A DNA stretch of 64,000 nt, taken from a virus. This document shows positions 19,262 to 52,832 of this stretch, piece after piece (the stretch's first letter is position 1; every line of letters begins with the position of its first letter). A model generated the notes under the pieces. It made no database searches and was not told where the DNA came from. It saw only the letters and a list, made by a program, of their open reading frames with translations. Both the position numbers and the translations under genes were made by a program. Location: the UHGV virus genome UHGV-0279745; one strand, 5' to 3'.

Positions 19262-19264
19262 TTG

Positions 19265-19720: not shown

Positions 19721-19722
19721 CA

Positions 19723-19768
19723 CCCCCTCCTGTACCCATTCGTGGTACAGGAGGGTCTTTCTTTTTAA
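19723..19768 (+). terminator. intrinsic terminator
   Basis: ccctcctgtacc/ggtacaggaggg 12-bp stem plus T-run. Confidence 0.65.
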
Positions 19769-19810
19769 CGTTTGCAACTATTTTAATGTAGACTAACAGG
19801 AGAATTCAAC

Positions 19811-20545
19811 ATGACCTACCCAAAAATTGTCACCCCGTACACACCGACGCTGGTTATTGGTGCTGATGCTGAAACCAAATCATTACGCCCCGATGCTTAT
19901 CTGTTAAGTGCGGGTTTAGTGGCTTTTGACGTCCCTACATTGAAAATGGTCGGTTCCTCATACATCAGGATCGATCCTAACGATCCTAAAGCAAAAGCCA
20001 TTTTCCACGAAGACCCACAAACCGTTGGTTGGTGGGAAGGTAAAGGCGAACCCGAATACGCACCGTCTCGTGAAGCCTATGCGGAAGCATGGGGTGGGAC
20101 GACAGCATTGCCAGACGCGCTCTGGGCGATGCAAAAATGGCTCGGGGAGATCACCGCAAAACACGAGTTTGTGATTACCATGCGTGGTCCTGACTTCGAT
20201 GCGCCGATTTTCATGAACGCATTCGCACAATGTGATATTCCGCCAGGGAAGTTCCGTAAATTCAGTGCACTGGATAGCGATCGTACCGCAGAACGTTTAG
20301 CCTTTGCATTTGGGTTCGAGCCTGACCTAACCGTAGAGCAAATTTACTGGACACGCGGTAAGCCCGCTTTTGAGCACCACGCTATGTGGGATGCGGCAAA
20401 AGAAGCCTACACCACGGCACGTATTTACCACCTCGCTTTGGTCACTCGCCAATACGGGTTTGAACGCGCCAAAGCCTGTCACGAAGAACTGAAAACGGGC
20501 GAGTATGTTGCGCCGCAGATTCGTGATCAATTAACCAGGGATTAA
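19811..20545 (+). CDS. DnaQ-like 3'-5' exonuclease (DEDDh)
   Basis: Exo I GADAET, Exo III HHAMWDA motifs; RBS caggagaa. Confidence 0.6.
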   Translation: MTYPKIVTPYTPTLVIGADAETKSLRPDAYLLSAGLVAFDVPTLKMVGSSYIRIDPNDPKAKAIFHEDPQTVGWWEGKGEPEYAPSREAYAEAWGGTTALPDALWAMQKWLGEITAKHEFVITMRGPDFDAPIFMNAFAQCDIPPGKFRKFSALDSDRTAERLAFAFGFEPDLTVEQIYWTRGKPAFEHHAMWDAAKEAYTTARIYHLALVTRQYGFERAKACHEELKTGEYVAPQIRDQLTRD

Positions 20546-20547
20546 GA

Positions 20548-22068
20548 ATGAAGAACGTTGATGTTGCAGTAATTTACACGGATGGTAGCCATTTGACCTC
20601 CCCGCTCGGTACAGGAGCGGGGATTCATGGATACTTATTTAATCGTGAAGCGATTGAGGATGGTCGGGTTTACCGTCATCCCTCTATTCCCGAGGGGATT
20701 ACGACGTCAGGATACCGCCAGATAAACAAGGATGAAAAACTTCCACCTTTACCAGAAACCGTGGAGTTTATTGACGGTGTTGTGCCTGTACCAAAAATGT
20801 CACACTCCGACGTTGCAGAACTCGTGGCTTTCCTGACCGTCTTCGAACACGCACCTTTCGTTGCCAAAAACTATGTTATCTATATCGATGCCTCTTACGT
20901 TGTCAACACGTATAACGATTGGATTGATGGTTGGGCTGCACGCGGTTGGCGTCGTGCAGACGGTACGCCTATTGCGAACTTGGAATTAATCCAACGGATG
21001 TGGGAGGTTAAACAGCGGTTAAAGAAAGAAGGGAAAGGTATTCGTGTCCTTAAAATTAAAGGGCACTCAGGACGCTATGGAAACGAGCGTGCCGACGAGT
21101 TAGCACGGAAAGGTTCAAGTATTTCGGCTCGAGGTGAGGGGTTAGACTATACACCGTATTGGTCAAAAGACGAGATGCCTGAGGAAGAACAGCAACCAGA
21201 AGTTGTTGGTGAAGGTGTCAATTTGTCTGCTTTTCCCGATATCTGTGTTACGAAGTTCTGTTACCCGATGGTGAACGAACCGCATCCCACTGTTACAGTT
21301 AACGGTAATAAACTTTATTACATGTTCGGTGGGAACCATGCAAAACAGAAGGACGATATCGTCTTCGTTGGTAAGTACATTCCAGATGCACAATTCTGCG
21401 TAATGTTTACCAAAGAACCATGGAACAACGTATACGAGTTGGTAAATACCCACTCTGCGAAAGCGTGGGAAGGGGTGCCCCGTTTACGTCAGTTTGATCC
21501 CATTGCCGTTGTTTTTAACTTATTCGTAAAACGTAAGAAGTTCGCAGAAGCCGCAGGTAACGGTATTCCTGTCGATCGGATGCATTTTAGCGAAGACAAA
21601 AACCTGTGGATGTTTGAAGATCTTTCGATTACACGAATTCTTCGTCCCGCGTTATTGTCTTATCGCTGCATTACGATTCGTGATGAGCTTGCAGGTTGGT
21701 TACGCGATGCCATGGAGGGGAAAAACTCAGTCGTAATGAACGACATTACTGACCTGCTTTACGATGAGAAAGGTAAGCCGAAGAAAGACTTTTATCGTAA
21801 CGTAGATAAAGGTTTTGACGTAACTATCCATATCCCTGGTAGTAAAAACAAGGTTAAAACCATCCTTACTCGAGGTATCGACATACCGACGCGTACGGAA
21901 ATCAACCGTATGAAAGAACCAGAAGGACGATTCTACGTGGCGGTACGGCGTCCAGAACGGCAGTATATCGAGTACGCGTTGGTTTATATTGGGGAAAAAT
22001 ATCATGGGTTGTGGTGTGGCTATTATTCAAACAAACGAATATTGACGGATAAGGAGCTTGAATGCTGA
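20548..22068 (+). CDS. RNase HI-domain protein with about 330-aa C-terminal extension
   Basis: N-terminal RNase H motifs YTDGS ... YIDASYV ... HSGRYGNERADELA; 506 aa total. Confidence 0.65.
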   Translation: MKNVDVAVIYTDGSHLTSPLGTGAGIHGYLFNREAIEDGRVYRHPSIPEGITTSGYRQINKDEKLPPLPETVEFIDGVVPVPKMSHSDVAELVAFLTVFEHAPFVAKNYVIYIDASYVVNTYNDWIDGWAARGWRRADGTPIANLELIQRMWEVKQRLKKEGKGIRVLKIKGHSGRYGNERADELARKGSSISARGEGLDYTPYWSKDEMPEEEQQPEVVGEGVNLSAFPDICVTKFCYPMVNEPHPTVTVNGNKLYYMFGGNHAKQKDDIVFVGKYIPDAQFCVMFTKEPWNNVYELVNTHSAKAWEGVPRLRQFDPIAVVFNLFVKRKKFAEAAGNGIPVDRMHFSEDKNLWMFEDLSITRILRPALLSYRCITIRDELAGWLRDAMEGKNSVVMNDITDLLYDEKGKPKKDFYRNVDKGFDVTIHIPGSKNKVKTILTRGIDIPTRTEINRMKEPEGRFYVAVRRPERQYIEYALVYIGEKYHGLWCGYYSNKRILTDKELEC

Positions 22069-22730: not shown

Positions 22731-22745
22731 ATATTATCCAGGTGT
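22726..22745 (+). promoter_or_regulatory. candidate promoter-like element, variant class (agatagatattatccaggtg)
   Basis: AGATATTATC core upstream of the 22767 gene. Confidence 0.25.
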
Positions 22746-22766
22746 AACACCATTGGAGTTATTAAA

Positions 22767-25070: not shown

Positions 25071-25104
25071 CACCCTAGCTTCGGCTAGGGTTACTTTATT
25101 TTTA
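25071..25104 (+). terminator. intrinsic terminator
   Basis: ccctagc-ttcg-gctaggg plus T-run. Confidence 0.65.
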
Positions 25105-26976: not shown

Positions 26977-26984
26977 ATAGTTTA

Positions 26985-27030
26985 CCCCTAGACCGTGTGG
27001 TCTAGGGGTAACTTTACTTTTTTATTTTTT
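26985..27030. terminator. bidirectional intrinsic terminator between convergent genes
   Basis: cccctagacc-gtgt-ggtctagggg with T-runs on both sides. Confidence 0.65.
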
Positions 27031-41829: not shown

Positions 41830-44001
41830 TTAACGTGCTTGCGGCAAGAAGATGTTCGCGATCTGGCGTGCTGGAAGCACATCAAACGCAGAGTTAATAA
41901 AACTGCCCTGTGACCACGCAGATGCCCAGTTCTGCGCCCAAATGCTTCCTTGGATCTTGGCACGCTCTATACCGTTCGTACGTTCGTACAACGTCGCTGC
42001 GCCCAAACACGCCATAAACTCACTGAATTTATTATCGTCGTCCCAAACACCTGTGTCTGTAACGATGGGCATATACATCACACGGGACAAATCACGGATG
42101 GTAACATTGATATCACAAGACAGTGGAACAGAATCACCTGGTCGCCAACCTAAACCACCCACACCGAATTGTAAAGACAAAGACGTTACGATAGCGTTAC
42201 GGAACGAGAATCGACCTTGTGAGTAACACTCCAGATAAAACGGATGAGTGAATGATTGCTTACCCGTCGCAATTGGACATACTGCGGCGATCCAGAAGGA
42301 CAGTGGGACTAGAATTTCCTGGAAGATATCCAGGTCACTTCCCGACCATGCACGTAAAGGTATTGTCAAGTTAATATCATCGCCCGAGGCATCTGAACTG
42401 TCCCACACCTCTGGGAAGTCAATGACGGATGAATTATATAACGACATAATCCCCGTTAGATGCAACGTATCTGCTAACCCACGCATTACGGACTTAAAGC
42501 CCGTAATTAATGAATCGACCGCGTTGAAGCCGGTTTGCCCGCCGGACAAGTTTACTTCAAGTTGACGAGCTTTCGCCGTCATTGAGTTAACTGTGCTAGA
42601 GATCTCCGGCTCTTTTGTAGAATTAGAGAACGAACGAGAGACGGTGTCCTTCCCATCGATTCTCCAGGTTACCCACTGAGAACCGTTGTAGATTTCGGAC
42701 AGCGCCTGTGCTTTAATCCCTTCAATCTGTTCGCCAACCACTTTAACAAAGTCGCCGAAGAACGTCTCCATAGTCGATTCTTTACCTTTATCCGCCCAGG
42801 ACTGTATCGTATTCTGTTGTCCCTCGGTGAGGTTACTCGCATCGGCATTTTCCAAATCCTCATTCATTTTGTTTTGGATTTCTGCCGCCTGCGCCTCTAG
42901 GTCGCTTGCCGTTCCCCCAGTTTGTAACCCGGAACTAAACGCATCGAGAACCCCTTTCTCCAGTTCATCAACGCTGTTAATATCTTTACCCGACGCGTCT
43001 TTCGCCGCATAACCACCGCGTTCGGAAGCGGCTAACCGTTCCATGTCTTGCAAAGAAACTTCGTAATTTCTCACATCGTCAGAATACGAAGCTGCACCAT
43101 ACGTGCTATCCAGATAGAAATTTCGTATCCGCTCGGCGAGTTCGTCGTCACTTGAGGACTGCTTACGAAGCTCTTTTAAACGTTGATTCTGATAGTTCGC
43201 CAAAGTTTGATAACGGTTGATCATCTTAAAGACATCGAATTCACCGCCCTTTTTCCAAACCTCCGGTAACGCTTCAAAAGCCTCATCGCGTGCTTTTTTG
43301 TTCCCTTTTCCATCTCCGTCTTGACTGACCTGGAAGGTACCTAAGATACCCGTAGGAACCAAACGACGATAAACAAGTTGCGTATTCAAGATGTTCTGTA
43401 CAGCACGCAAATACAGATGCATCGTCGGTTTAACGTAATAATAACGCGACGTTTCTTTATTCAACGCTGCCGCGAGAATGCGTGGAGTAATTAAAATTAC
43501 CGCAAAAGCGACAGTACCCACCGTTGCCCATATCGCTGCCGCGCCGATATAACTTGCTATCGTACGGATCATTCCCGGATAGTCACCCGTACGCGCTAAA
43601 TATGCTAAGTTGGAATCGTACATATTCGCAAAGAACGCGGCCATGCCCAGATATTTCGGCTTTCCGAAACGGCAATGTACGTAAAACGAATTTTGGTTAA
43701 TACTTTCGTAATAATACGTCCCTAAGCGATAAGAAGCGGTTGGCATACCGTTAGCCAACGCCTTTTTCTCCGCCTCACGATTACCGGGTCGTGCAAATGC
43801 CCCAGTTGATGGGGGGTCTGCAAACCACGTAAACTGCGGAGGGCTATTAATCGCTTTACTACCGCCCATGGTCGTATCTTCAAAAGACATCATACCGTTA
43901 GAGTAGCGTCGCAAGGCCAGAAAACGTTCATCTCGGCCTTCCAACTCTCCCTTAAATAGATTTCTGACCCAGCTTGAGTCGTTAGCTGATCTAGCGTCCA
44001 C
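41830..44001 (-). CDS. hypothetical large protein (probable virion protein)
   Basis: ORF track; GTG start with AGAGG RBS; 723 aa. Confidence 0.65.
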   Translation of the reverse strand: MDARSANDSSWVRNLFKGELEGRDERFLALRRYSNGMMSFEDTTMGGSKAINSPPQFTWFADPPSTGAFARPGNREAEKKALANGMPTASYRLGTYYYESINQNSFYVHCRFGKPKYLGMAAFFANMYDSNLAYLARTGDYPGMIRTIASYIGAAAIWATVGTVAFAVILITPRILAAALNKETSRYYYVKPTMHLYLRAVQNILNTQLVYRRLVPTGILGTFQVSQDGDGKGNKKARDEAFEALPEVWKKGGEFDVFKMINRYQTLANYQNQRLKELRKQSSSDDELAERIRNFYLDSTYGAASYSDDVRNYEVSLQDMERLAASERGGYAAKDASGKDINSVDELEKGVLDAFSSGLQTGGTASDLEAQAAEIQNKMNEDLENADASNLTEGQQNTIQSWADKGKESTMETFFGDFVKVVGEQIEGIKAQALSEIYNGSQWVTWRIDGKDTVSRSFSNSTKEPEISSTVNSMTAKARQLEVNLSGGQTGFNAVDSLITGFKSVMRGLADTLHLTGIMSLYNSSVIDFPEVWDSSDASGDDINLTIPLRAWSGSDLDIFQEILVPLSFWIAAVCPIATGKQSFTHPFYLECYSQGRFSFRNAIVTSLSLQFGVGGLGWRPGDSVPLSCDINVTIRDLSRVMYMPIVTDTGVWDDDNKFSEFMACLGAATLYERTNGIERAKIQGSIWAQNWASAWSQGSFINSAFDVLPARQIANIFLPQAR

Positions 44002-44007
44002 GTTTTA

Positions 44008-44040
44008 CCTCTAAAAAAACGGGGGTAGTTTCCTACCCCC
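44008..44040 (-). terminator. putative intra-operon terminator/attenuator on minus strand
   Basis: On the minus strand: gggggtag/ctaccccc hairpin followed by T7, located between the giant gene and the 723-aa gene. Confidence 0.45.
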
Positions 44041-44049
44041 CTGTTGTTA

Positions 44050-47000
44050 TTACGCCGATTTACGACTAACGTCGAGTTGTGGCGCTGGTTGGGTTATTGA
44101 CACGTTACGTGACGCCGAACCCGGAGCGGTTGACGCAGGGTTAGCCGGTCCGTTTTGCATAGCCTGTGGTCGCTGACGAAGAATTGTTACAATCTCTTTC
44201 AGGTAGCCCGCAGACTCTTTTGCAACCGCCAGCTGCTGTACGCTGATCGGATCACCGCTGTTCACTGTAGAGCCGGTCTGTGCATCGGAAGTTACTGTTG
44301 GTGCAGGGCGGACTGATTTCTCCATCTGCTGTCTAGCACCTTCTTTTACTTTAGCAACATCCTCTTCGGCCAGGCCGTCAGCACGAGCATTTTGACCCAC
44401 CGTATCTACAACAACTGACGCATCACTCGGTGTCACGTCGCCGCCGGGGCTCGGCACCGCCGGACCACCGCCCGTCGCAGCTTTAATGTCATCGGCCCCC
44501 ATTGCACCTTTATCTGCTAAGGCTGTGTCACGATTCGCCTCGTTCGCAGCTGGCAGGTTATCTGCCGGGCCTGTGATGGACGGATCGTTAGCAGCGCCCG
44601 CAGCGATGGCTGGGGATGACGGCATTGGCGTTACGCCAGTCGTCAAGTCTTTCACCGATGCCTGATTGCCCGCAATTGCGTTTGTTCCTACTGCACCAAT
44701 CTTACCACCCATGATGCTGAGCACTTCATCCAAACTACGCAATTTTCCATTCTTGTAGAAAATTGTGCTGTTTGCCGCGATTTGATCGGCCGATGCACCA
44801 CGCGATGACGGACCGTTCGGATCACGCTTCCATTCTTGCAGGAATTTCTTACCGCCACCTTGTCCTAAGAAGTGGTAGAGGTAAACTGCCGCACCGGGAG
44901 GATCGATGCCACCTAAATCCTTTCTGGCTTTCTCGATATTGTCACGAATATGGCGGACACCAAGCAGGGCATTCGCCCACGGGTCATACTGGTCGGTTTG
45001 CGGGATACCGTAACGTCTAGCGTAAGCTTTCATCTGCTCACTCCAGGTACCGTTGATGAACTGGAACAAGCCAGCTGCAGAACTTCCTTTAGCTTTGATG
45101 CCGTATCTAAGTCCTGATTCTGCTTGTGCCATTCCCAGCGCTAACGCTGGAGGAACACCCATCATCTTCGCTACGTCTATAATCAGTGCTGCGACCGCAT
45201 TCAGGTTAGGCTTCAATCCGTCACCCAACGTTGAAATTGGATACTTAGCCGCTAACGTTTTATAATCACCGTCTTGCATCTCGCCAAGCTTCACACCGAA
45301 GTTACCGGTACTAAACGCGGCGTAATTCTTAGCCCCCATCTGACCATAAGCACCAGCCAAATCGTTTGGCGTGCCGTAATTACCACCGTCATTCGCTGCC
45401 GGTTGAAGCAGATCGCGATAAGAGGAGGAAGTATTCATCTGTTGCCGAGGTGGTTGGTCCTTCTCGTCATCGGTCAAGAACATCTGAGTCGCACGATCTT
45501 TTCGCTGCCAGTTCACACGGAAACCAGCAGAAGGCGTAGCACGCAGCGTTTTACGTACTGCCAAATCAGCTTCCTTAGACAGTTCTTTCAGGTTCTCTAA
45601 CTCCGTTGCAACTGAACCAGCGTCAGTGTTAGCATCACCCCCTAACGGGTTAAACGGTACCTCCCACACCGATTGGCGAATACCCCCTTTCAGGTTGTAC
45701 GCACCACGCATCATCAGTGCGATTTCATACAAGAACCCGCCTGTAACGCGTAGGTCCATCGGATCGGCAGCAGGGACATAACGTTTCACCCCAACCACGT
45801 ACGTCATGAAGACAGGTAAGAAGCGGTTATAGAACCAGTTCTTGTACCGATCTTCTTTTGGTCCACCAATAGCGTCAGGTGCAATCACTGCAATCGCACG
45901 TTTCCAGTCTCCTTTATACGTACAACTTTTCACATCAGTGTCTTGCAACACTTGACGTTCTAGGAGCGTATAGAGGTTACGGGTTGTTTGAGTAATGCTC
46001 ACCGCACCATAAGCTTTCAACCTTACAGATTCCAAATCACGGAGATCGGTTTCTTTAGGTAAGCTTCTCCAGTCAACTTGAACCTGAACTTGTTCGGTGC
46101 CGTCTTCCCAACCTTCAACCTTTGCAACCTCTTTGTTGCGTTCCGCATCCGCTTGAGCCAACGCTTGGGTCGATTCCGCCACAGAAGCAACTTTGTGTCC
46201 TTCGGCCACGCTGCCCGTAGCATTTACATCCTTACGTTTTTCATCACGACGCATGTTAATCGAACGAAGCACGCGTTCTTGTGCTTCAACGACTTCTTCA
46301 CCTGACAAAAACTCGGCCGGGGTAAACGTTACGAAATCCCACGCTTTAGAGAACCAACCTTGGTTAACCTTGCGGGGGTCTTCTAATGCACGGAATGCAG
46401 GTGCGTCTTTCGACATCTTCATTTTGTTAAAGATGTTCAACATGTCTGCTTTCGACACTTTCGCTGGATTACCGACGTCTGCTAACGCGATATCGTTATC
46501 CATCGATTTCAGTGCCGTAATCCAACGTAAGTAAATAGGCACAAAACGTTGTAGCATAAACGCACTAAACGCCAGCATTTCGCCTTTGTCTTCTACGTTA
46601 GTACCAAACCCTTCGGCCAGTTTCTTCACATCGTCACCAGACAAACCACGCAGCTGCGCTTGACCGTTCTCTGTATAAGAGATATACGGTTTCAAGTTGT
46701 CTTCTAAATAACGTGCTTTTGCACCGTCGTCGGAAGACCATTCATCATGGTCTCTAAAACCGTACTGCGCCAATCGCATGTTATCTAGGTACTGGGCATT
46801 TACACGATCTTTAGTTTTATAATAAAACCACGTTAACCCTGCGCCAGCGGCTACCAAACCGATAATCGGCCAGCCAACCGCAGTTACCACTGCAGATGCA
46901 GCTGTCGCGACAGCACTCACCGCAGGGACAGCCAAACGGGTCACGGCAAACTTACCAACGTTCCACAACGCTTTGCCTGCAAATCCGACCGGCTTGAAGA

Positions 47001-50000
47001 TTCCCCATTTTGCAAGTTTACCTAAGATTGAACCCACTGTGCCTAAAATACTCACGATTGGTCCTACCAACGGCAATCCTTTAAGGAAATCCATTACCCC
47101 ACGTTTACCACCTTTCTTCTCAGCCTCTTTCTTAGCCTTTTCCTCTTCCTTAGAACGCCGACGGCGTCGGAAGAACTGGAAGTAATCGCGTTTTTCATCA
47201 CTGGCAGGCGGCTTATTGCGTTGGCCGAACTTACTGAACATAGTTCTTAACAAACCTTCCGAAGCACCTGCTTTTTCCGCAGAATCACGCATGGTGTTAA
47301 ACCATGACATTTCCTGAAGATTAACCATTCGGTTCAGGCGTTCCAGTAAAGCTGACCCAACGCTACGGGCTTTCTGTTTCCCTTTATTAATCACACGTCC
47401 AGCGCTATCCGTTACGGTGTCTAAGTCTTCTTTTGCCGCATCGATGATACGTGTTTTAGACACCTTGCCTCTTGCGTAGATGTGCTGACGATAAAACTCA
47501 GCAACATCGTCATCGCGTCCTGCTAAACGACTCTCCATTCGATAACGTGTGCCGATATCGTAACGTGGGTCTCGGAAAGTATCGACCATATCGCTTGCAC
47601 GGCCACGGAAACGATCAAACCAACCACGTGCGGCACCGCCCCAACGAGAAAGACGACCACCTACCGCACTGCGATAACGGGACATTCTGTCACGCATCCG
47701 ACCACGCCAATCCCGGAACCCCTGAAAATGTTCACGGAACCCATCACGTATGTCTTTAGCACGTTGGAATAATCCTTTAACTGAGCTGGCTCCCGTATTC
47801 CGTTCCATCTGTTCTGTCCAGGTATCATCTTCTGGTTCACCTGGCAATCTCCGGTTAAGGAGTTTGTAGATACGGATTAAGATGTGGTTAGTTTTACGGC
47901 CGTTCGACCATGAGAACACACTAAACCCACCACCAGAACCCCCTTCCTTACGGTTCTGCCACCAACGTGTCAGAGGGTTATCAGAAGCCAACTCTTTGAG
48001 CTTCTCAAATCCGCGTTTTGCATTGTTCCACAAACGTGCTGGCATTCCCGTTACACGGGAAATCATGCTTTGTAAACGGGTTTTCTCTGCACCCTCTGGA
48101 ACCTCATTTAACCACTCGCGTGCTTTCTCGAACAACGAAGCCGCTTTAGGCGAAATGAAACCCAGAAGTTTCTTCGGTAAAGTCACAGCTTTGTTTACCG
48201 CCGTTCCTGCTTTCCCAGAAATGTACTGGAAAAGCGCTTGAACTTTACCACCTTTGTAGAAACGCAGTTTACCTGCGGCAGCCAAATCAGCAGCAGCTAA
48301 GATTAAATTACCCGCTTCATCGACGATGTCACGTCCCAGTTTAATATCGTCGAGAGTTTTAAGTTGAATCAGCTTCTCAGTTTTCGGGTCAGCCTGGTAA
48401 TATTCCCCAGCTTCTAAACGACTTCCTTGTAATACGACGTTGCCACGTTCATCGTAGATGTCGCGAACGCCTAAAACACCTTTACCGAAAGCTACGGCAG
48501 AATTCCAACCCGTCGATAATGTACCGGTTACTAACCCTTTCAGTCGGCTAAATACGCCGGGACCTTCGGAGGAACCGCCTGAGAATTTCCCACGAATAAA
48601 ACCACCTAATGCTTGTAGGCGATCTTTCCCACGTAGGAACAGATTCTTACCAAACCGTCCTACACCAGAACCGGTATCCCAAAGCACTCCAGCCCAGCGA
48701 CGTAACAAACCTGTCTCGCCTAGTACAATACGTTTGCGCTTACGACGACGTTTACGGCCCGATTCACTCGAACTTTCAGGTTCGTCGCCGTCATCACGAC
48801 TACCGCCTAAACTGGCTAGAAGAATACCTTCCTCATCCATGTTCTTAACGTGTTTGAGGATATCTTGCACGGTGCTAGATTCAGGCTGTTTACGTACGGC
48901 ATCAATCAATCGATCGAACTGTTGTTCCAGCCCGGCGTTCGTATCTGGACGGCTGCTTAAGAGCTCAACAAAGTTGGTAGATTTCTCTCCATAAAGTACC
49001 GCAGCGAGTTGACGGGCGCTTAAACCACGACCGCGACCACCTTTTCCACCACCACGTACGTTGGACAGTTCTTTGTCTTCAAAGCTCGGCTCTGCTCCTG
49101 CACCCATCCGACGCAAGTAATCACCCAACGCAGAACCATTTTGCAGCTTACGTTGAATCTCTTGCTCACGGGTTAACGAACGGCCAGAACGGGTCTTACC
49201 CATCGACAGGTCGTTAAATAGCGTATAGGGATCGTTAATGTCCTTATCGACTTCGAAAATGTCGTTCTTCGCATCGTATTTAAAAATACCGGAATCGCGA
49301 AGTGCGTTCTCGCCGTAAATCACAGACGCAGCATCAACCGTGTCTTGACGTGCACGAATCGTTGACTGAATAGCGGCTATTTTGTTTGAAATCGCATTAC
49401 TCAGTTCATGGTGACCGCCAACCAGTTCCGCAGAACGGGCTTCTAAAACACCCTGAATCGCTTCCACAGCGTTTGCGTTCATGTAACGATACATGTGCAT
49501 CGGGTCTTTCAATAAAGACCCTACATCGAACGCTTTCCCTTCCGAGGCACGAGACTCGATGTAGTCCGCTAACGCCTGACGTGTTTTCCTATCGAGCGTT
49601 TTATCTTTATCGATAAAGTCGACAGTGTCGTTGATGTACGTCTGTAAACGTTTGCGCTGATCGTCATTAGCAACGGCCTTACGTACACGATTACCAATAA
49701 CTTTGCGATCAACCATACCGCGCGTGGTCAGGTCGTATACCTGATCGTGGTGTTCGCCATACCCACGACGAATAGATTTGTTAATCTCGGACAGTAACGT
49801 CGGAATAACTTCGGTGATACTAAGGTAAGCTTTACGATCGAATTTCGCTGCGGCAGAAAGAGATTCCGCAGAGCGATCGTCTAATGCTAAGGTTTCGCGA
49901 CGTAGCGGGTTAACTAGCCCCAATTCGTGCATTAGTCGAAACAGATCAGCTAACGGACCGCTTGTTTCTCCCGCTATTGCCGAGTTAGAAATAGACGACA

Positions 50001-51174
50001 AATTTCCAAAGCCATACTTCGCCAACTGTAGGCGTTTCATGACTTCTGGGTTTTTCTCTAACTCGCCACGGGTCCAGTTCTGAAGACGCTCGATCTGGGG
50101 TTGTAAGAGACGTTTTGCTAACCAACCACCTGCAAAACCTGCCGCTTTATTACGCGAGTTTGTGTTACGACGGTCAGGAGACAACGATGAGCTGTCCGAC
50201 ATGTCAAAGTCATCTTCCTGAGCCATCCCTAGAACTTGTTCTAGAATCCCACGACCATCACTAAAGATGTTCGAGATTTTCTTCTTCGCGTTTTCGCGAA
50301 TCTGACCAATGAAATTATCTGCGTAGTGTAAGGGGTTCATCCACTCCGCAGCTTTACGTTTTACATTAGCCCAACGAATTTCAGAAAACTCTTCCTTCGC
50401 GTAGTCGGGTAGTGCCGTGTTCTTAACGATGGCTTCTAATGCCGGGGTGTTGCGTGCAAACTCGTCTTGTTTGAGTTTCGCAATATCCTGCAAAGCAAAC
50501 AATGTCCGATATTGCAGCTCTAACTGCTTACGCTGAACATTCAACAACACGCCACGACTTAAGCTAGTCGTTAAGTTGACGTCTTTTGCAATACCGATTA
50601 CGGTCTGGAACAGCGCGTCGGACTTCATGTCCTTAATCGTGTCGCGCAAGCGGTCTTCAACCATCCCCTCTTGCGCCTCACGTTGCTGGTCCGCTGTTTG
50701 CGGTGCACCTGAGAACACGCTGTCCAGCTCACGATCCATCATCGCTTGTTTAGGATCGTAATTCCCATAGTCGATTTGATCGTTACGTGCCCACTTGTCG
50801 ATTTTCCGTGTTACGGATTCCGGTAAATACCGTTTCAGTGTTGGGCCTAACTGTCTCGCTTGCATCTTAACGACGCGAGACGTCTTTTCAATCTCGTCTT
50901 TCGTATGGGCCAGAATGTCTTGACCTGCGGCTTTAACGTTTTGATAGCCTTCGTAGGCTTCTGCCGCAGGTTTAGGCATCCCTTTTAAAATAACCTGATC
51001 ACGTTTGTTTTCGGGCCAGATAGTCGACAACGCCGACTTACGGGCAGCACGAAATGTGTCCATGACCGGGTTACGCGATTGGTCTTGTTGACGAGGGGGC
51101 TCATCAAAATCGTCCCAGTCGTCCATGTTATCAAGATCGATTTCATCGAAATCATCTTTACCTTTTTTAGCCAT
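44050..51174 (-). CDS. giant virion-type protein (2374 aa) with transmembrane segments and C-terminal lytic transglycosylase (SLT) domain
   Basis: Uninterrupted 7.1-kb ORF; SLT motif GMAQAESGLRYG...GLFQF encoded about 44830..45160; Gly/Ala-rich hydrophobic helices about 46800..47090; acidic N-terminus. Confidence 0.8.
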   Translation of the reverse strand: MAKKGKDDFDEIDLDNMDDWDDFDEPPRQQDQSRNPVMDTFRAARKSALSTIWPENKRDQVILKGMPKPAAEAYEGYQNVKAAGQDILAHTKDEIEKTSRVVKMQARQLGPTLKRYLPESVTRKIDKWARNDQIDYGNYDPKQAMMDRELDSVFSGAPQTADQQREAQEGMVEDRLRDTIKDMKSDALFQTVIGIAKDVNLTTSLSRGVLLNVQRKQLELQYRTLFALQDIAKLKQDEFARNTPALEAIVKNTALPDYAKEEFSEIRWANVKRKAAEWMNPLHYADNFIGQIRENAKKKISNIFSDGRGILEQVLGMAQEDDFDMSDSSSLSPDRRNTNSRNKAAGFAGGWLAKRLLQPQIERLQNWTRGELEKNPEVMKRLQLAKYGFGNLSSISNSAIAGETSGPLADLFRLMHELGLVNPLRRETLALDDRSAESLSAAAKFDRKAYLSITEVIPTLLSEINKSIRRGYGEHHDQVYDLTTRGMVDRKVIGNRVRKAVANDDQRKRLQTYINDTVDFIDKDKTLDRKTRQALADYIESRASEGKAFDVGSLLKDPMHMYRYMNANAVEAIQGVLEARSAELVGGHHELSNAISNKIAAIQSTIRARQDTVDAASVIYGENALRDSGIFKYDAKNDIFEVDKDINDPYTLFNDLSMGKTRSGRSLTREQEIQRKLQNGSALGDYLRRMGAGAEPSFEDKELSNVRGGGKGGRGRGLSARQLAAVLYGEKSTNFVELLSSRPDTNAGLEQQFDRLIDAVRKQPESSTVQDILKHVKNMDEEGILLASLGGSRDDGDEPESSSESGRKRRRKRKRIVLGETGLLRRWAGVLWDTGSGVGRFGKNLFLRGKDRLQALGGFIRGKFSGGSSEGPGVFSRLKGLVTGTLSTGWNSAVAFGKGVLGVRDIYDERGNVVLQGSRLEAGEYYQADPKTEKLIQLKTLDDIKLGRDIVDEAGNLILAAADLAAAGKLRFYKGGKVQALFQYISGKAGTAVNKAVTLPKKLLGFISPKAASLFEKAREWLNEVPEGAEKTRLQSMISRVTGMPARLWNNAKRGFEKLKELASDNPLTRWWQNRKEGGSGGGFSVFSWSNGRKTNHILIRIYKLLNRRLPGEPEDDTWTEQMERNTGASSVKGLFQRAKDIRDGFREHFQGFRDWRGRMRDRMSRYRSAVGGRLSRWGGAARGWFDRFRGRASDMVDTFRDPRYDIGTRYRMESRLAGRDDDVAEFYRQHIYARGKVSKTRIIDAAKEDLDTVTDSAGRVINKGKQKARSVGSALLERLNRMVNLQEMSWFNTMRDSAEKAGASEGLLRTMFSKFGQRNKPPASDEKRDYFQFFRRRRRSKEEEKAKKEAEKKGGKRGVMDFLKGLPLVGPIVSILGTVGSILGKLAKWGIFKPVGFAGKALWNVGKFAVTRLAVPAVSAVATAASAVVTAVGWPIIGLVAAGAGLTWFYYKTKDRVNAQYLDNMRLAQYGFRDHDEWSSDDGAKARYLEDNLKPYISYTENGQAQLRGLSGDDVKKLAEGFGTNVEDKGEMLAFSAFMLQRFVPIYLRWITALKSMDNDIALADVGNPAKVSKADMLNIFNKMKMSKDAPAFRALEDPRKVNQGWFSKAWDFVTFTPAEFLSGEEVVEAQERVLRSINMRRDEKRKDVNATGSVAEGHKVASVAESTQALAQADAERNKEVAKVEGWEDGTEQVQVQVDWRSLPKETDLRDLESVRLKAYGAVSITQTTRNLYTLLERQVLQDTDVKSCTYKGDWKRAIAVIAPDAIGGPKEDRYKNWFYNRFLPVFMTYVVGVKRYVPAADPMDLRVTGGFLYEIALMMRGAYNLKGGIRQSVWEVPFNPLGGDANTDAGSVATELENLKELSKEADLAVRKTLRATPSAGFRVNWQRKDRATQMFLTDDEKDQPPRQQMNTSSSYRDLLQPAANDGGNYGTPNDLAGAYGQMGAKNYAAFSTGNFGVKLGEMQDGDYKTLAAKYPISTLGDGLKPNLNAVAALIIDVAKMMGVPPALALGMAQAESGLRYGIKAKGSSAAGLFQFINGTWSEQMKAYARRYGIPQTDQYDPWANALLGVRHIRDNIEKARKDLGGIDPPGAAVYLYHFLGQGGGKKFLQEWKRDPNGPSSRGASADQIAANSTIFYKNGKLRSLDEVLSIMGGKIGAVGTNAIAGNQASVKDLTTGVTPMPSSPAIAAGAANDPSITGPADNLPAANEANRDTALADKGAMGADDIKAATGGGPAVPSPGGDVTPSDASVVVDTVGQNARADGLAEEDVAKVKEGARQQMEKSVRPAPTVTSDAQTGSTVNSGDPISVQQLAVAKESAGYLKEIVTILRQRPQAMQNGPANPASTAPGSASRNVSITQPAPQLDVSRKSA

Positions 51175-51203
51175 AACGTTTAATCCGTATCAGGAGATTT
51201 AGC

Positions 51204-52823
51204 GTGAATAAACTTAATTGGGTTGACTTTTATCTGCTCAATGTAAACAAGTCTCTTGTGTCGCGATTACGACCCGTCACGACCACGGATACTTTCCAGG
51301 GGTTAACAAAAAACTTTCACCCCGAAGGTCTTTACTCTACAGAGATATTTGGACTCACGGGGAGTGAAGCGCGAGACTCTACTTTCTCTTATATCGATAT
51401 TAAACTCGATATCATTTCGCCGACGGTGTGTTTGGCGTTATTCCAACTCAAACAACTCTACGAAGAAATTTGTTCTGGAAAACGCTACGCAACGTGGAGC
51501 GAAAAAGAAAAAGATTTCGAACCGGCCTTGCCGGGAGACCCAGGCGCAGATACCGGTTTTAACTTCTTCCTCAGTCACTATAACGATTTAAAACCTAAGC
51601 GTAACGAGTCCCTACAACGTGACGAAACCGTGGATTTCTTTTTGAAATTCCGTCCCGTTAGTCTTAGTCGATACGTTCTCGTGTTACCCGCGGGTTTACG
51701 CGATTTAGTAATTCGACAAGATGGTAGAGAACAGGAAGAAGAAATCGGCGGGATGTATCGTCGGTTGGTATCACTCGCCAGGGCGATCCCTGACCGAGCA
51801 ACCCGTGTTGAATTAACTAACCCCGTACGCTGGAAGCTGCAACAAACCTTCAACGATATCTGGATGTATTTCTTTAACATCCAAGACGGTAAAGGGGGTT
51901 TCCAACGTCGTAAAGTGACGTCTCGTAAATTAATGAACGGGACACGTAACGTACTGTCCTCATTCTCGACGGGGTCTAAGTGCATGGGTCGTGAAGACGC
52001 TATTCGTCCCACCGACACCAAAATTGGTTTATACCAGGGCTTAAAAGCGTTACTCCCCGTTGCGCAATACCAGATACGTGAACGTTACCTCGGTAACATC
52101 CGTGCTGGTGACGGCAACCTTTACGGCGTAAACACCAAAACCCTTAAACGTGAATTCTTGGAAGTAGGTGGTCGTGTATACGACACATTCACCACCGACG
52201 ATGGGATTGAATCCTTAATCAACCGAATGGAAGCTCGCGAGCTTCGCCATCAGCCGATTATGTTGGACGACACCCACTACGTTGCGTTGGTTTACCAAGA
52301 CACCAAACATTTTAAGGTGTTCTACGATATTGAAGAACTTCCTAAAACGTTTGACCGAAAATTCGTCCACGGTATGACGCTCGTCGAATTGCTTTATTTG
52401 TCGGGCTACGAGCTTTGGAACGATTATTTCGGTTTCGTTACACGTTATCCCGTTACAGGCCGAGGCTCGACGTATTCATCGACCATAAGATTGGAGACCA
52501 CCACATCATCTTTATACTTAAAAGAACTGGAAGATGACTGGGAAACTGAAAAACCCCGAGGGGCTATCAGCTACCCTGACCGGTCGGTTCCTACCTTCGT
52601 TGAGTCGATGGCACCACACCCTTCACGCTTAGGTGGCTTAGGGGGTGACTACGACGGCGATACCGGGTCGTTTAACGCGCCTATGTCCCAGGAAGCACTC
52701 GAGGAAAACCGGAATTGGATACACTCGAAAAACTACTGGTTCGATTCTGATGGGAACTTTAAAATCAATCCTATCAACAACGTGATTAAACGTGCAACGC
52801 AAGCGTTATTAAAGAACCCATAA
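51204..52823 (+). CDS. multisubunit RNA polymerase beta-prime-like subunit (N-terminal catalytic fragment), putative
   Basis: GTG start with CAGGAG RBS; aa 482-486 DYDGD (nt 52647..52661) followed by NAPMSQEALEE, matching the beta-prime NADFDGD...PL..EA..EA active-site region. Confidence 0.5.
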   Translation: MNKLNWVDFYLLNVNKSLVSRLRPVTTTDTFQGLTKNFHPEGLYSTEIFGLTGSEARDSTFSYIDIKLDIISPTVCLALFQLKQLYEEICSGKRYATWSEKEKDFEPALPGDPGADTGFNFFLSHYNDLKPKRNESLQRDETVDFFLKFRPVSLSRYVLVLPAGLRDLVIRQDGREQEEEIGGMYRRLVSLARAIPDRATRVELTNPVRWKLQQTFNDIWMYFFNIQDGKGGFQRRKVTSRKLMNGTRNVLSSFSTGSKCMGREDAIRPTDTKIGLYQGLKALLPVAQYQIRERYLGNIRAGDGNLYGVNTKTLKREFLEVGGRVYDTFTTDDGIESLINRMEARELRHQPIMLDDTHYVALVYQDTKHFKVFYDIEELPKTFDRKFVHGMTLVELLYLSGYELWNDYFGFVTRYPVTGRGSTYSSTIRLETTTSSLYLKELEDDWETEKPRGAISYPDRSVPTFVESMAPHPSRLGGLGGDYDGDTGSFNAPMSQEALEENRNWIHSKNYWFDSDGNFKINPINNVIKRATQALLKNP

Positions 52824-52832
52824 GGCTAAGCA

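What the first reader, a model, noticed from the sequence alone, without database searches (positions are those of the whole stretch)
20548..22068. RNase HI domain fused to a 330-aa extension of unknown function
Canonical RNase HI catalytic motifs occupy only the first 170 aa or so. The long C-terminal region has no recognisable motif and might tether the nuclease to the replisome or provide a second activity.
Basis: partly seen in the sequence, partly recalled or inferred. Interest (0 to 1): 0.35.

Follow-up and report, generated by a model that had tools for sequence, protein, structure and literature searches.

The report
Jumbo-phage RNase H–clamp protein (Rhc)
This gene encodes the jumbo-phage protein "Rhc", an RNase HI fused to a sliding-clamp-like DNA-binding domain; two October 2026 preprints showed that related versions are an accessory subunit of the phage's split DNA polymerase, so the finding is real but already explained.

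Summary
The ORF is real: 20548..22068 on the + strand, 506 aa. Residues 1-195 form an RNase HI domain, and all five catalytic residues (D12, E91, D114, H173, D183) are invariant in 54 homologs. An acidic, disordered linker (about 196-217) leads to a 289-aa C-terminal domain.

No sequence library recognises that C-terminal domain (Pfam, NCBIfam, PDB sequences). AlphaFold2 nevertheless folds it confidently (pLDDT 91.8, pTM 0.90). Eleven of its 12 best PDB fold matches are PCNA or 9-1-1 clamps, but each match is weak (E ≥ 0.0096, TM ≤ 0.32).

The whole protein is homologous over both domains to PhiKZ gp155 and to Goslar Rhc. Recent papers show these proteins have RNase H activity. They bind the phage's split B-family DNA polymerase through the clamp-like domain, hold the emerging duplex DNA and stimulate synthesis. 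In Goslar the protein also supports late transcription.

The polymerase-docking hot spot mutated independently in both phages maps to the conserved L370 here. The window is syntenic with Erwinia phage Asesino, a proven nucleus-forming phage.

Verdict: an uncharacterised ortholog of a recently described family. Novelty is low.

The parts
20548..22068 (+). Complete Rhc-type gene (506 aa plus stop): RNase HI domain, flexible linker, clamp-like domain
   Evidence: ORF listing. Full-length match to phrog_3265, E 4.2e-170. 66% identity to Asesino gp226. BLASTP to Goslar Rhc E 5e-26 and to the PhiKZ-type gp155 ortholog E 7e-31.
20548..21132 (+). RNase HI domain, aa 1-195. It includes the Trp-rich 'handle' (basic protrusion) WIDGWAARGWRRADGTPIANLEL at aa 125-147.
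   Evidence: Pfam PF00075 matches aa 81-190, E 8.8e-21. PDB sequence hits to E. coli and human RNase HI, E about 1e-11. Foldseek E about 5e-9 with TM relative to target 0.65-0.77. pLDDT is above 90 for most of the domain.
20581..20583 (+). Codon of catalytic Asp12, equivalent to E. coli RNase HI D10 (motif YTDGS)
   Evidence: D in 53 of 54 aligned homologs, the other being a gap. Motif aligned to E. coli FTDGS.
20818..20820 (+). Codon of catalytic Glu91, equivalent to E. coli E48 (motif AEL)
   Evidence: Invariant in 54 of 54. Equivalent to PhiKZ-type E78.
20887..20889 (+). Codon of catalytic Asp114, equivalent to E. coli D70, Goslar D119 and PhiKZ D102, the residue mutated to make catalytic-dead Rhc
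   Evidence: Invariant in 54 of 54. Mapping from Goslar D119 and PhiKZ-type D102. Mutants described in PMC13648698 and PMC12571901.
21064..21096 (+). His173 to Asp183 (motif KGHSGRYGNERADELA), equivalent to E. coli H124 and D134
   Evidence: H173 and D183 are invariant in 54 of 54. Aligned to E. coli KGHAGHPENERADELA.
20641..20763 (+). Family-specific insertion (aa 32-72) between the N-terminal beta-strands of the RNase HI fold; role unknown
   Evidence: The Pfam profile only starts matching at aa 81, at profile position 36. The insertion is modelled with pLDDT 93-95. Comparable insertions are present in Goslar and PhiKZ-type Rhc.
21133..21198 (+). Acidic flexible linker (aa 196-217; the slightly longer stretch aa 196-222 has pI 4.05)
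   Evidence: pLDDT is below 50 at aa 210-217. pTM is 0.57 for the whole protein against 0.90 for the C-terminal domain alone. Composition. This is consistent with the RNase H domain being unresolved in the PhiKZ cryo-EM maps.
21199..22065 (+). C-terminal clamp-like domain (aa 218-506): predicted to bind duplex DNA and dock on the DNA polymerase
   Evidence: AF2 pLDDT 91.8, pTM 0.90. 11 of the top 12 PDB Foldseek hits are PCNA or 9-1-1, but all are weak: best E 9.6e-3, TM at most 0.32. Strong BFVD matches to the C-terminal parts of jumbo-phage 'ribonuclease H' proteins: Wellington TM 0.93, Noxifer E 4.8e-15, RP12 E 1.3e-13. 20 columns are at least 80% Lys/Arg.
21655..21663 (+). Leu370-Ser-Tyr372: predicted polymerase-docking hot spot
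   Evidence: Goslar assembly-mutant residues L363 and W365 map to L370 and Y372. PhiKZ assembly-mutant residue M346 maps to the same column, L370. That column is L in 53 of 54 sequences, and the Y372 column is Y in 50 of 54.
21529..21540 (+). Conserved basic patch K328-R329-K330-K331 (consensus KRKKF): predicted DNA-contacting surface
   Evidence: Goslar DNA-binding-mutant residue R318 maps to R329, which is R in 47 of 54. Columns 329-331 are at least 81% K/R. Consensus.
22036..22044 (+). C-terminal tail R497-I498-L499: predicted second polymerase-contact element
   Evidence: Goslar Y505/L507 and PhiKZ F478/I479 (assembly mutants) fall in this tail. R497 is 96% conserved. The exact register is uncertain by 1-2 residues.
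19811..20545 (+). Upstream neighbour: a 244-aa DEDDh-type 3'-5' exonuclease (Rv2179c-like), probably co-transcribed and possibly translationally coupled with Rhc. This is context, not part of the protein.
   Evidence: Pfam PF16473 E 2.5e-11. phrog_255 E 3.8e-44. Its stop lies 2 nt before the Rhc ATG. The same adjacency is seen in Asesino gp225/gp226 and in SPN3US-like and CR5-like phages.
19725..19755 (+). Terminator-like hairpin (12-bp stem, 8 G-C pairs, T-rich tail) that would close the preceding unit, so that the exonuclease and Rhc genes open a new one
   Evidence: Consensus scan. This is a pattern match only. The number of such sites in the region is no higher than in shuffled sequence.

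Best explanation
The gene encodes an ortholog of Rhc (RNase H-clamp), a core protein of nucleus-forming jumbo phages (Chimalliviridae).

Inferred mechanism, from the characterised orthologs:
- After import into the phage nucleus, the C-terminal domain docks as a monomer on the thumb and palm region of the phage's two-subunit B-family DNA polymerase (DNAP^N^ plus DNAP^C^). This domain is a sliding-clamp-derived fold that no longer forms a ring.
- Its basic concave face holds the duplex DNA emerging from the active site. This shifts the polymerase from exonucleolysis to synthesis and probably raises processivity.
[quoted passage not shown] It is catalytically competent and is positioned to remove RNA annealed to the template (R-loops or primers).
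- Independently of the polymerase, the same two domains may clear R-loops that impede late transcription.

Shown here: the two-domain anatomy, the intact catalytic site, homology to the studied proteins across both domains, conservation of the docking hot spot and of many basic residues, and the jumbo-phage context.

Inferred only: polymerase binding, DNA binding, enzymatic activity and nuclear localisation of this particular protein.
For: Anatomy:
- The ORF and the RNase_H domain.
- Five catalytic residues, four invariant and D12 present in 53 of 54 homologs.
- A confident two-domain AF2 model with a disordered linker.

Family:
- Full-length phrog_3265 match.
- 24% identity, E 5e-26, to Goslar Rhc over aa 68-497.
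- 25% identity, E 7e-31, to the PhiKZ gp155 ortholog (Churi gp167) over aa 5-494.
- I confirmed the identity of both reference proteins. All 11 Goslar residues and all 4 PhiKZ residues named in the papers are found at the stated positions.
- The C-terminal model matches the C-terminal halves of Rhc-type proteins from PhiKZ-like (Noxifer) and Ralstonia (RP12) phages, with TM 0.69-0.73.

Clamp relation:
- 11 of the 12 best PDB fold hits are PCNA or 9-1-1.
- Beta-clamp, PCNA and herpesvirus accessory factors appear among the weak viral hits.

Functional residues:
- Two independently designed 'assembly' mutants (Goslar L363D, PhiKZ M346E) hit the same column, window L370, which is L in 53 of 54.
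- Goslar DNA-binding residues K259 and R318 map to the conserved K266 and R329.
- 20 columns in the domain are at least 80% K/R, and its pI is 8.6.

Context:
- Synteny with Asesino gp222-gp238. Asesino is an experimentally verified nucleus-forming phage (PMC11724907).
- Multisubunit phage RNA-polymerase genes lie in the window.
- Full-length DNAP^C^ homologs exist in Asesino, SPN3US-like and CR5-like phages (E about 1e-130).

Experiments on orthologs: PMC13648687, PMC13648698 and PMC12571901.
Against: - Nothing was measured on this protein, and identity to the two studied orthologs is only 24-25%.
- The fold match to clamps is individually non-significant (best E 9.6e-3, probability at most 0.38, TM 0.2-0.3, rmsd above 11 A). 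My own data alone would not prove a clamp origin.
- Three of the five Goslar DNA-binding residues (R233, K262, R264) and three of the five Goslar interface residues (S272, Y505, L507) are not conserved at the aligned positions. The alignment register is uncertain there.
- The polymerase subunits and chimallin are not in the 64-kb window, so the partners are inferred from relatives.
- The two key papers are un-refereed preprints from overlapping groups.
- The need for RNase H activity differs between PhiKZ and Goslar, so its importance in this clade is unknown.
Confidence: 0.85

Rival explanations
1. The protein is mainly a free-standing R-loop or primer-removal RNase H. On this view the C-terminal domain serves chiefly as the nuclear-import and localisation determinant and as a nucleic-acid anchor, not as a polymerase subunit.
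For: - In Goslar the isolated clamp domain localises to the phage nucleus and the isolated RNase H domain does not.
- PicA (the import factor) is a predicted or reported partner.
- The transcription role is independent of polymerase docking.
- Rhc binds the polymerase only transiently in vitro.
- The catalytic residues are under strict conservation.
Against: - The clamp domain alone stimulates primer extension.
- Cryo-EM shows it on the polymerase with DNA.
- The docking hot spot L370 is conserved in 53 of 54 sequences.
- These roles are not mutually exclusive with the main explanation.
Confidence: 0.1
2. The C-terminal domain is a true ring-forming sliding clamp (trimer or dimer) that encircles DNA and carries RNase H as cargo. 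This would resemble PCNA recruiting RNase HII, but fused into one chain.
For: - The best PDB fold hits are PCNA and 9-1-1 subunits, including a PCNA:RNase HII complex, 3p83.
- The domain size (289 aa) is close to that of a PCNA protomer.
- These phages lack any other recognisable clamp.
Against: - For PhiKZ Rhc the authors report loss of the oligomerisation elements and no confident oligomer prediction. They see a single Rhc per polymerase in cryo-EM.
- The global superposition on PCNA is poor here (TM at most 0.32).
- No clamp loader is known in these phages (my own knowledge).
Confidence: 0.03
3. The C-terminal domain carries a second, still unrecognised enzymatic activity.
For: Several polar residues are nearly invariant in the domain (H264, D270, D280, D399, D445), and no library annotates it.
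Against: - No fold match to any enzyme family stands out.
- DNA-binding and assembly mutants account for the non-catalytic phenotype in the orthologs.
- The conserved residues are dominated by basic and hydrophobic positions.
Confidence: 0.02

Closest known systems
PhiKZ gp155 (Rhc, also called Nlp2; NP_803721.1), compared here through its ortholog Churi gp167
   Same: - Same two-domain order: RNase HI, flexible linker, clamp-like domain.
- Alignable end to end (E 7e-31).
- Same catalytic residues.
- The docking residue M346 aligns with window L370.
- The family is part of the chimallivirus core genome.
   Different: - Only 25% identity, and 482 aa against 506 aa.
- PhiKZ tail residues F478/I479 align with K496/R497 here, although the register is uncertain.
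- No exonuclease gene lies upstream in the PhiKZ-type phage examined (Churi).
- In PhiKZ the nuclease activity is dispensable for replication. This is unknown here.
Goslar Rhc (called 'gp190' in PMC13648698; GenBank locus tag Goslar_00246, QBO64037.1, 508 aa)
   Same: - Almost the same length and the same architecture.
- BLASTP E 5e-26 over aa 68-497.
- D119 maps to D114, L363 to L370, W365 to Y372, K259 to K266 and R318 to R329.
   Different: - 24% identity.
- R233, K262, R264, S272, Y505 and L507 are not conserved at the aligned positions.
- The gene neighbourhood differs.
Erwinia phage Asesino gp226, and the SPN3US-like and CR5-like 'putative ribonuclease H' proteins (phrog_3265)
   Same: - Closest relatives: 66%, about 64% and about 47% identity, all full length.
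- Identical local gene order: virion protein, two small ORFs, exonuclease, Rhc.
- Asesino is a proven nucleus-forming phage.
   Different: None of these proteins has been studied experimentally. They are annotated only as ribonuclease H or as hypothetical. The window's phage has no near-identical DNA in the phage collection.
Herpesvirus monomeric processivity factors (HSV-1 UL42, KSHV PF-8)
   Same: It works like these: a clamp-derived fold that binds the polymerase and duplex DNA without encircling it. The PhiKZ authors draw this analogy. PF-8 and gammaherpesvirus accessory factors appear among the weak fold hits.
   Different: - There is no detectable sequence relation.
- Rhc binds the polymerase only transiently.
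- Rhc carries a fused RNase HI domain.
PCNA, 9-1-1, and the PCNA-RNase HII partnership
   Same: These are the top-ranked fold relatives. The functional logic is the same: an RNase H is brought to the replisome through a clamp.
   Different: - Not a member of these families: no Pfam PCNA, Rad9, Rad1 or Hus1 match.
- TM at most 0.32.
- A ring is not expected.
- The nuclease is type 1 (RNase HI) and is covalently fused rather than recruited by a PIP motif.
Bacterial RNase HI (RnhA, PF00075) and retroviral RT-RNase H
   Same: The N-terminal domain has the same fold, the same DEDD(H) active site and the same Trp-rich handle. Like reverse transcriptase, it couples RNase H physically to a polymerase.
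   Different: - Scores lie far below the NCBIfam equivalog cut-offs (65 against 160 bits).
- It has a 40-aa insertion.
- It has an extra 289-aa domain.
- It associates with a DNA-dependent B-family polymerase as a separate subunit.

Membership tests
Chimallivirus Rhc (RNase H-clamp; PhiKZ gp155 / Goslar Rhc / phrog_3265) | N-terminal RNase HI domain with a complete DEDD(H) active site | tested here: met
   PF00075 E 8.8e-21. Foldseek to RNase HI E about 5e-9. E91, D114, H173 and D183 are invariant, and D12 is present in 53 of 54.
Chimallivirus Rhc (RNase H-clamp; PhiKZ gp155 / Goslar Rhc / phrog_3265) | C-terminal domain of about 290 aa homologous to the clamp domain of the characterised Rhc proteins | tested here: met
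   BLASTP alignments run through the C-terminal domain to within about 10 residues of the end. phrog_3265 covers aa 1-504. The C-terminal model matches the Noxifer and RP12 proteins with TM 0.69-0.73.
Chimallivirus Rhc (RNase H-clamp; PhiKZ gp155 / Goslar Rhc / phrog_3265) | The C-terminal domain has a sliding-clamp-derived fold | tested here: inconclusive
   11 of the top 12 PDB hits are PCNA or 9-1-1, but the best is E 9.6e-3 with probability 0.35 and TM at most 0.32. No internal duplication is detectable by hhalign. The claim rests mainly on the published structure comparison for PhiKZ and Goslar.
Chimallivirus Rhc (RNase H-clamp; PhiKZ gp155 / Goslar Rhc / phrog_3265) | Flexible linkage between the two domains | tested here: met
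   Prediction only. pLDDT is below 50 at aa 210-217. pTM is 0.57 for the full protein against 0.90 for the domain alone. The linker is acidic.
Chimallivirus Rhc (RNase H-clamp; PhiKZ gp155 / Goslar Rhc / phrog_3265) | Encoded by a chimallivirus: multisubunit phage RNA polymerases, chimallin, split DNA polymerase | tested here: inconclusive
   RNA-polymerase subunit genes are in the window. The window is syntenic with the nucleus-forming phage Asesino. DNAP^C^ is present in all close relatives. However, chimallin and DNAP^C^ are not inside this 64-kb window.
Chimallivirus Rhc (RNase H-clamp; PhiKZ gp155 / Goslar Rhc / phrog_3265) | Conserved polymerase-docking surface | tested here: inconclusive
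   The hot spot L370/Y372 is conserved and is hit by both published assembly mutants. Other interface residues (Goslar S272, Y505, L507; PhiKZ F478, I479) are not conserved at the aligned positions.
Chimallivirus Rhc (RNase H-clamp; PhiKZ gp155 / Goslar Rhc / phrog_3265) | Physical binding to DNAP^N+C^ and stimulation of DNA synthesis; RNase H activity; nuclear localisation | not testable with these tools
   This needs biochemistry, or a complex prediction with the cognate polymerase, whose genes lie outside the window.
Canonical sliding clamps (PCNA, 9-1-1, beta-clamp, T4 gp45) | Sequence-family membership (Pfam PCNA_N/C, Rad9, Rad1, Hus1, DNA_pol3_beta) | tested here: not met
   No such Pfam or NCBIfam hit even at E up to 10. 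The PDB sequence profile search finds no clamp.
Canonical sliding clamps (PCNA, 9-1-1, beta-clamp, T4 gp45) | Closed oligomeric ring around DNA, loaded by a clamp loader | not testable with these tools
   Reported as absent for PhiKZ Rhc: a single subunit in cryo-EM and loss of the oligomerisation elements.
Housekeeping bacterial RNase HI (RnhA equivalog) | Single-domain protein of about 155 aa that reaches the NCBIfam equivalog score | tested here: not met
   65.2 bits against a cut-off of 160 for NF001236, and 67.4 against 170 for NF006433. The protein is 506 aa with an extra domain.

The most novel reading that the evidence does not exclude
In the Asesino/SPN3US-like clade to which this phage belongs, Rhc may work in a clade-specific way.

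Two observations point that way:
- Its gene directly follows the gene for a DEDDh 3'-5' exonuclease (2-nt gap) and is probably co-transcribed with it, possibly translationally coupled. This adjacency is absent from Goslar and from the PhiKZ-type phage examined (Churi).
- More than half of the residues mutated in the Goslar DNA-binding and assembly mutants are not conserved here.

The exonuclease could be an additional partner, for example in a primer or R-loop processing module. Alternatively, the docking or DNA-binding geometry could differ from the published complexes.
Probability: 0.1. Interest if true: 0.45.

Novelty: new member of a known kind. Interest (0 to 1): 0.25.

Why it matters
The family itself matters. 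It explains how nucleus-forming jumbo phages replicate without a recognisable sliding clamp, and it couples RNase H physically to a DNA-dependent polymerase.

That insight is already published, in 2025-2026. This locus adds one more uncharacterised ortholog, from a phage that is absent from the phage genome collection and is known otherwise only from metagenomes.

Its practical value is for annotation:
- Genes of this type, still labelled 'ribonuclease H' or 'hypothetical protein' in Asesino-, SPN3US- and CR5-like genomes, can be renamed as the RNase H-clamp polymerase subunit.
- The alignment of 54 homologs shows which published functional residues are family-wide (D114, L370, Y372, K266, R329) and which are lineage-specific.

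Tried and rejected
- Pfam scans of the C-terminal region, whole and in two halves, gave only sub-threshold noise: BNR_3, NA-iREase1 and rotavirus VP7, E 0.02-0.2. NCBIfam gave nothing for the whole region. I rejected the Pfam hits as chance.
- A PDB sequence-profile search with the C-terminal alignment gave only spindlin and YqgN at E about 0.3. I rejected these too. The PhiKZ polymerase-Rhc cryo-EM entries do not seem to be in the PDB copies available here.
- Foldseek with the full-length model returned only RNase HI, because the N-terminal domain dominates. I therefore made a separate model of the C-terminal domain.
- hhalign of the N-half against the C-half of the C-terminal domain, with four different cuts, gave no internal-repeat signal (probability at most 0.2). 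This is uninformative, because clamp domain duplications are usually invisible in sequence (my own knowledge).
- Megablast of window 19000-24000 against phage genomes found no match, so no near-identical reference genome exists.
- I first looked for Goslar 'gp190' under locus tag Goslar_00190. That gene encodes 364 aa and is unrelated. The 508-aa RNase HI is Goslar_00246. All 11 residues named in the paper fit it, so the paper's numbering differs from the GenBank locus tags.
- tblastn of Goslar chimallin and of PhiKZ DNAP^C^ against the window found no hit. These genes lie elsewhere in genomes of about 240 kb.
- Goslar chimallin is too divergent to detect most SPN3US-like homologs by tblastn. 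I therefore relied on the Asesino paper for family membership.
- I considered a gene-fusion or read-through artefact and rejected it, because the architecture recurs in at least 1,040 cluster representatives.
Full report
**1. The observation**

The ORF listing returns an ORF at exactly 20548..22068 on the + strand, 506 aa, starting with ATG. The upstream gene ends with TAA at 20543-20545. An AGGGA Shine-Dalgarno-like motif lies 6 nt before the ATG, and homologs align from residue 1. The gene model is therefore sound.

Pfam finds a single domain, RNase_H (PF00075), at aa 81-190 with E 8.8e-21. PDB sequence searches hit E. coli, Thermus and human RNase HI at E about 1e-11. The catalytic set is complete:
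- D12 (motif YTDGS)
- E91 (motif AEL)
- D114 (motif IDASY)
- H173 and D183 (motif KGHSGRYGNERADELA)

In an alignment of 54 full-length homologs, E91, D114, H173 and D183 are invariant, and D12 is present in 53 of 54. The Trp-rich 'handle' of E. coli-type RNase HI is present at aa 125-147.

It ends at about aa 195, because a family-specific insertion of about 40 aa (aa 32-72) interrupts the N-terminal strands. This is why the Pfam match starts only at profile position 36.

The rest of the protein is recognised by none of the sequence libraries:
- Pfam: nothing better than E 0.02, far below cut-off.
- NCBIfam: nothing.
- A PDB sequence profile of the C-terminal alignment: nothing better than E 0.29.

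**2. What the genome is**

The window has no near-identical DNA in 50,697 phage records. The protein has 168 full-length tblastn matches, all in the listed rows from jumbo phages. The best are Erwinia phage Asesino and phiEaH2 (66%), SPN3US-like Salmonella phages (about 64%) and CR5-like phages (about 47%). PhiKZ-like and Ralstonia phages match at 23-26%.

Gene order around the ORF is the same as in Asesino gp222-gp238: virion protein, two small ORFs, exonuclease, 'ribonuclease', and further on UvsX and an RNA-polymerase beta subunit. The window also holds further pieces of the multisubunit phage RNA polymerase, at 51204-56999.

Asesino has been shown by microscopy to build a chimallin-bounded phage nucleus and is placed in Chimalliviridae (PMC11724907). 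A 99%-identical protein occurs on metagenomic contigs of up to 177 kb.

**3. Structure**

AlphaFold2 on the 54-sequence alignment gives mean pLDDT 91.1 but pTM 0.57. Only residues 210-217 fall below pLDDT 50. The picture is of two rigid domains joined by a flexible acidic linker (aa 196-222 have pI 4.05).

The C-terminal 289 aa, modelled alone, reach pLDDT 91.8 and pTM 0.90. Foldseek results were as follows.
- The full model finds only RNase HI.
- The C-terminal model against the PDB has no individually significant hit. Yet 11 of the 12 best-ranked chains are PCNA or 9-1-1 subunits, with more PCNA and the KSHV processivity factor PF-8 further down (best E 9.6e-3, probability at most 0.38, TM 0.2-0.32).
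- The C-terminal model against predicted viral structures matches the C-terminal halves of 'ribonuclease H' proteins strongly: Erwinia phage Wellington (TM 0.93), Pseudomonas phage Noxifer (E 4.8e-15, TM 0.73) and Ralstonia phage RP12 (E 1.3e-13). Weak hits to beta-clamp, PCNA and herpesvirus accessory factors follow.

My reading is that the domain is a conserved, family-specific fold whose nearest known relatives are sliding clamps. My data alone make that relation suggestive, not proven.

**4. Literature**

Three papers describe this family.
- Gerovac et al. (Nature 2025, PMC12571901) showed that PhiKZ gp155 is a core-genome protein and a bona fide RNase H. It is essential for genome amplification and nucleus maturation, and a catalytic-dead D102N mutant still complements.
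- Basu et al. (bioRxiv, 1 Oct 2026, PMC13648687) named it Rhc (RNase H-clamp). Their cryo-EM shows a single Rhc whose clamp-like domain packs against the thumb, palm and palm-insertion domains of the split B-family polymerase (gp82 plus gp50). Together with the thumb, it binds the emerging duplex. [quoted passage not shown] Rhc converts the polymerase from degrading the primer to extending it, and an M346E/F478A/I479D mutant abolishes that effect.
- Rani et al. (bioRxiv, 2 Oct 2026, PMC13648698) found the following in Goslar:
  - The clamp domain binds DNAP^C^ and localises to the nucleus.
  - The isolated clamp domain stimulates synthesis.
  - DNA-binding and assembly mutants fail to stimulate it.
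  - The catalytic-dead D119N mutant only partly rescues replication.
  - Transcription of a subset of late genes needs both RNase H activity and DNA binding by the clamp domain, but not polymerase docking. This suggests R-loop removal.

**5. Linking the window protein to those proteins**

The 508-aa Goslar RNase HI is GenBank locus tag Goslar_00246, not Goslar_00190. All 11 residues named in the paper are found at the stated positions. BLASTP of the window protein against it gives 24% identity and E 5e-26 over aa 68-497, which covers both domains.

The PhiKZ-type protein (Churi gp167, 482 aa) has D102, M346, F478 and I479 at the published positions. It aligns at 25% identity, E 7e-31, over aa 5-494.

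Mapping the published functional residues onto the window protein gives this picture.

| Published residue | Role | Window residue | Conservation in 54 homologs |
|---|---|---|---|
| Goslar D119, PhiKZ D102 | catalytic Asp | D114 | invariant |
| Goslar L363, PhiKZ M346 | assembly mutants | L370 (same column) | L in 53 of 54 |
| Goslar W365 | assembly mutant | Y372 | Y in 50 of 54 |
| Goslar K259 | DNA-binding mutant | K266 | K in 50 of 54 |
| Goslar R318 | DNA-binding mutant | R329 | R in 47 of 54 |
| Goslar R233, K262, R264 | DNA-binding mutant | F237, D269, I271 | not basic |
| Goslar S272, Y505, L507 | assembly mutant | P279, I498, T500 | not conserved |

The register is uncertain in the non-conserved regions. 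The domain as a whole keeps 20 columns that are at least 80% Lys/Arg, including the KRKKF patch, and has pI 8.6.

Full-length homologs of the polymerase partner DNAP^C^ exist in Asesino, SPN3US-like and CR5-like phages (E about 1e-130). The gene is not within this window. In Asesino it lies about 170 kb from the Rhc gene.

**6. Breadth of the family**

A profile of the C-terminal domain, searched against 1.84 billion representative proteins, finds 1,040 at E up to 1e-3 and 802 at E up to 1e-10. Of the 150 listed, nearly all are 470-560 aa with the domain at the very C-terminus, which is the same architecture. The exceptions are noted under 'noticed in passing'.

**7. Mechanism, and which steps are shown or inferred**

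Shown here:
- the two-domain anatomy and flexible linker (by prediction);
- the intact active site;
- homology to PhiKZ and Goslar Rhc over both domains;
- conservation of the docking hot spot and of a basic surface;
- the chimallivirus-type context.

Inferred from the orthologs:
- import into the phage nucleus;
- monomeric docking on DNAP^N+C^;
- binding of the nascent duplex and stimulation of synthesis;
- RNase H action on template-bound RNA and on R-loops during late transcription.

I put 0.85 on this. The rivals are a mainly free-standing R-loop RNase H whose C-terminal domain is an import or anchor module (0.10, and not exclusive), a true ring clamp (0.03) and a second enzymatic activity (0.02).

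**8. Comparison and novelty**

It works like herpesvirus UL42 and PF-8, which are monomeric clamp-derived processivity factors. Conceptually it also resembles PCNA-tethered RNase HII and the RNase H domain of reverse transcriptase. It is not a member of the PCNA or beta-clamp sequence families, nor an RnhA equivalog.

It is a member of the Rhc family. Two defining features are fully met, the fold relation and the genome context are only partly testable here, and biochemical binding is untestable with these tools.

Because the family and its mechanism are now described, this locus is a new member of a known kind. Interest is low (0.25).

The most novel reading still open is a clade-specific twist: the co-transcribed and possibly translationally coupled DEDDh exonuclease, or an altered docking or DNA-binding surface (probability about 0.1).

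Noticed in passing
window 19811..20545 (+) and 20543..20550: A 244-aa DEDDh 3'-5' exonuclease gene (Pfam Rv2179c-like PF16473, phrog_255) ends 2 nt before the Rhc start codon. This exonuclease-Rhc adjacency is conserved in Asesino, SPN3US-like and CR5-like phages. It is absent in Goslar, whose PF16473/DUF5051-type exonuclease is the distant Goslar_00147, and in the PhiKZ-like phage Churi. No functional link is known.
   Followed up: partly
window 19725..19755 (+): A strong terminator-like hairpin (12-bp stem, 8 G-C pairs, T-rich tail) lies just upstream of the exonuclease gene. The next comparable sites are at 25072..25091 and 26982..27011. This suggests one transcription unit running from the exonuclease through Rhc and about five small ORFs. 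It is a pattern match only.
   Followed up: no
window 22062..22068 (+): The next ORF (222 aa, phrog_9472, unknown function) starts at an ATG that overlaps the last codons and the stop of Rhc. It is preceded by AAGGAG inside the Rhc coding sequence, so the two genes are tightly packed and may be translationally coupled.
   Followed up: no
window 20641..20763 (aa 32-72 of Rhc): The RNase HI domain carries a confidently modelled insertion of about 40 aa between its N-terminal strands. Comparable insertions occur in Goslar and PhiKZ-type Rhc, all with a T/S-x-GY motif. Its role is not addressed in the parts of the papers I read.
   Followed up: partly
Proteins P0073, P0090, P0183, P0187 (not in the window): Some Rhc homologs of 668-752 aa carry a GIY-YIG nuclease domain, an I-TevI-type DNA-binding domain, or both, N-terminal to the RNase H domain. 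This is probably a homing endonuclease inserted at, or read through into, the 5' end of the gene.
   Followed up: partly
Proteins P0069, P0085, P0123, P0179; BFVD entries I1VX43 and G4KKB4 (not in the window): Proteins of about 230-340 aa match the clamp-like domain but have no Pfam RNase_H domain. They could be stand-alone clamp-like subunits, split genes or truncated gene calls. If they are genuine, they would bear on how the fusion arose.
   Followed up: no
Locus L004 38087..39613 (-) and L001 8154..9248 (+), Goslar MK327938: The preprint calls Goslar Rhc 'gp190'. In GenBank the 508-aa RNase HI is locus tag Goslar_00246 (QBO64037.1), while Goslar_00190 is an unrelated 364-aa protein. All 11 residues cited in the paper fit Goslar_00246. 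Other gp numbers in the paper (165, 171, 174-177) do match the locus tags.
   Followed up: yes
window 41830..56999: This stretch holds a 2,374-aa ORF on the minus strand (44050..51174; phrog_3201 'tail fiber' plus a transglycosylase domain). It lies next to two large RNA-polymerase beta-type subunit genes (51204..52823 and 52833..56999). The region of the giant ORF has the highest G+C in the window (0.52) and a negative GC skew.
   Followed up: no
whole window; locus L006: The phage has no megablast match in the phage genome collection. A 99%-identical Rhc occurs in metagenome assemblies with the same gene order, for example ENA ERZ28566464 scaffold_4 (131 kb) and several Logan SRA assemblies. 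It is therefore an uncultured or undeposited relative of the Asesino/SPN3US group.
   Followed up: partly
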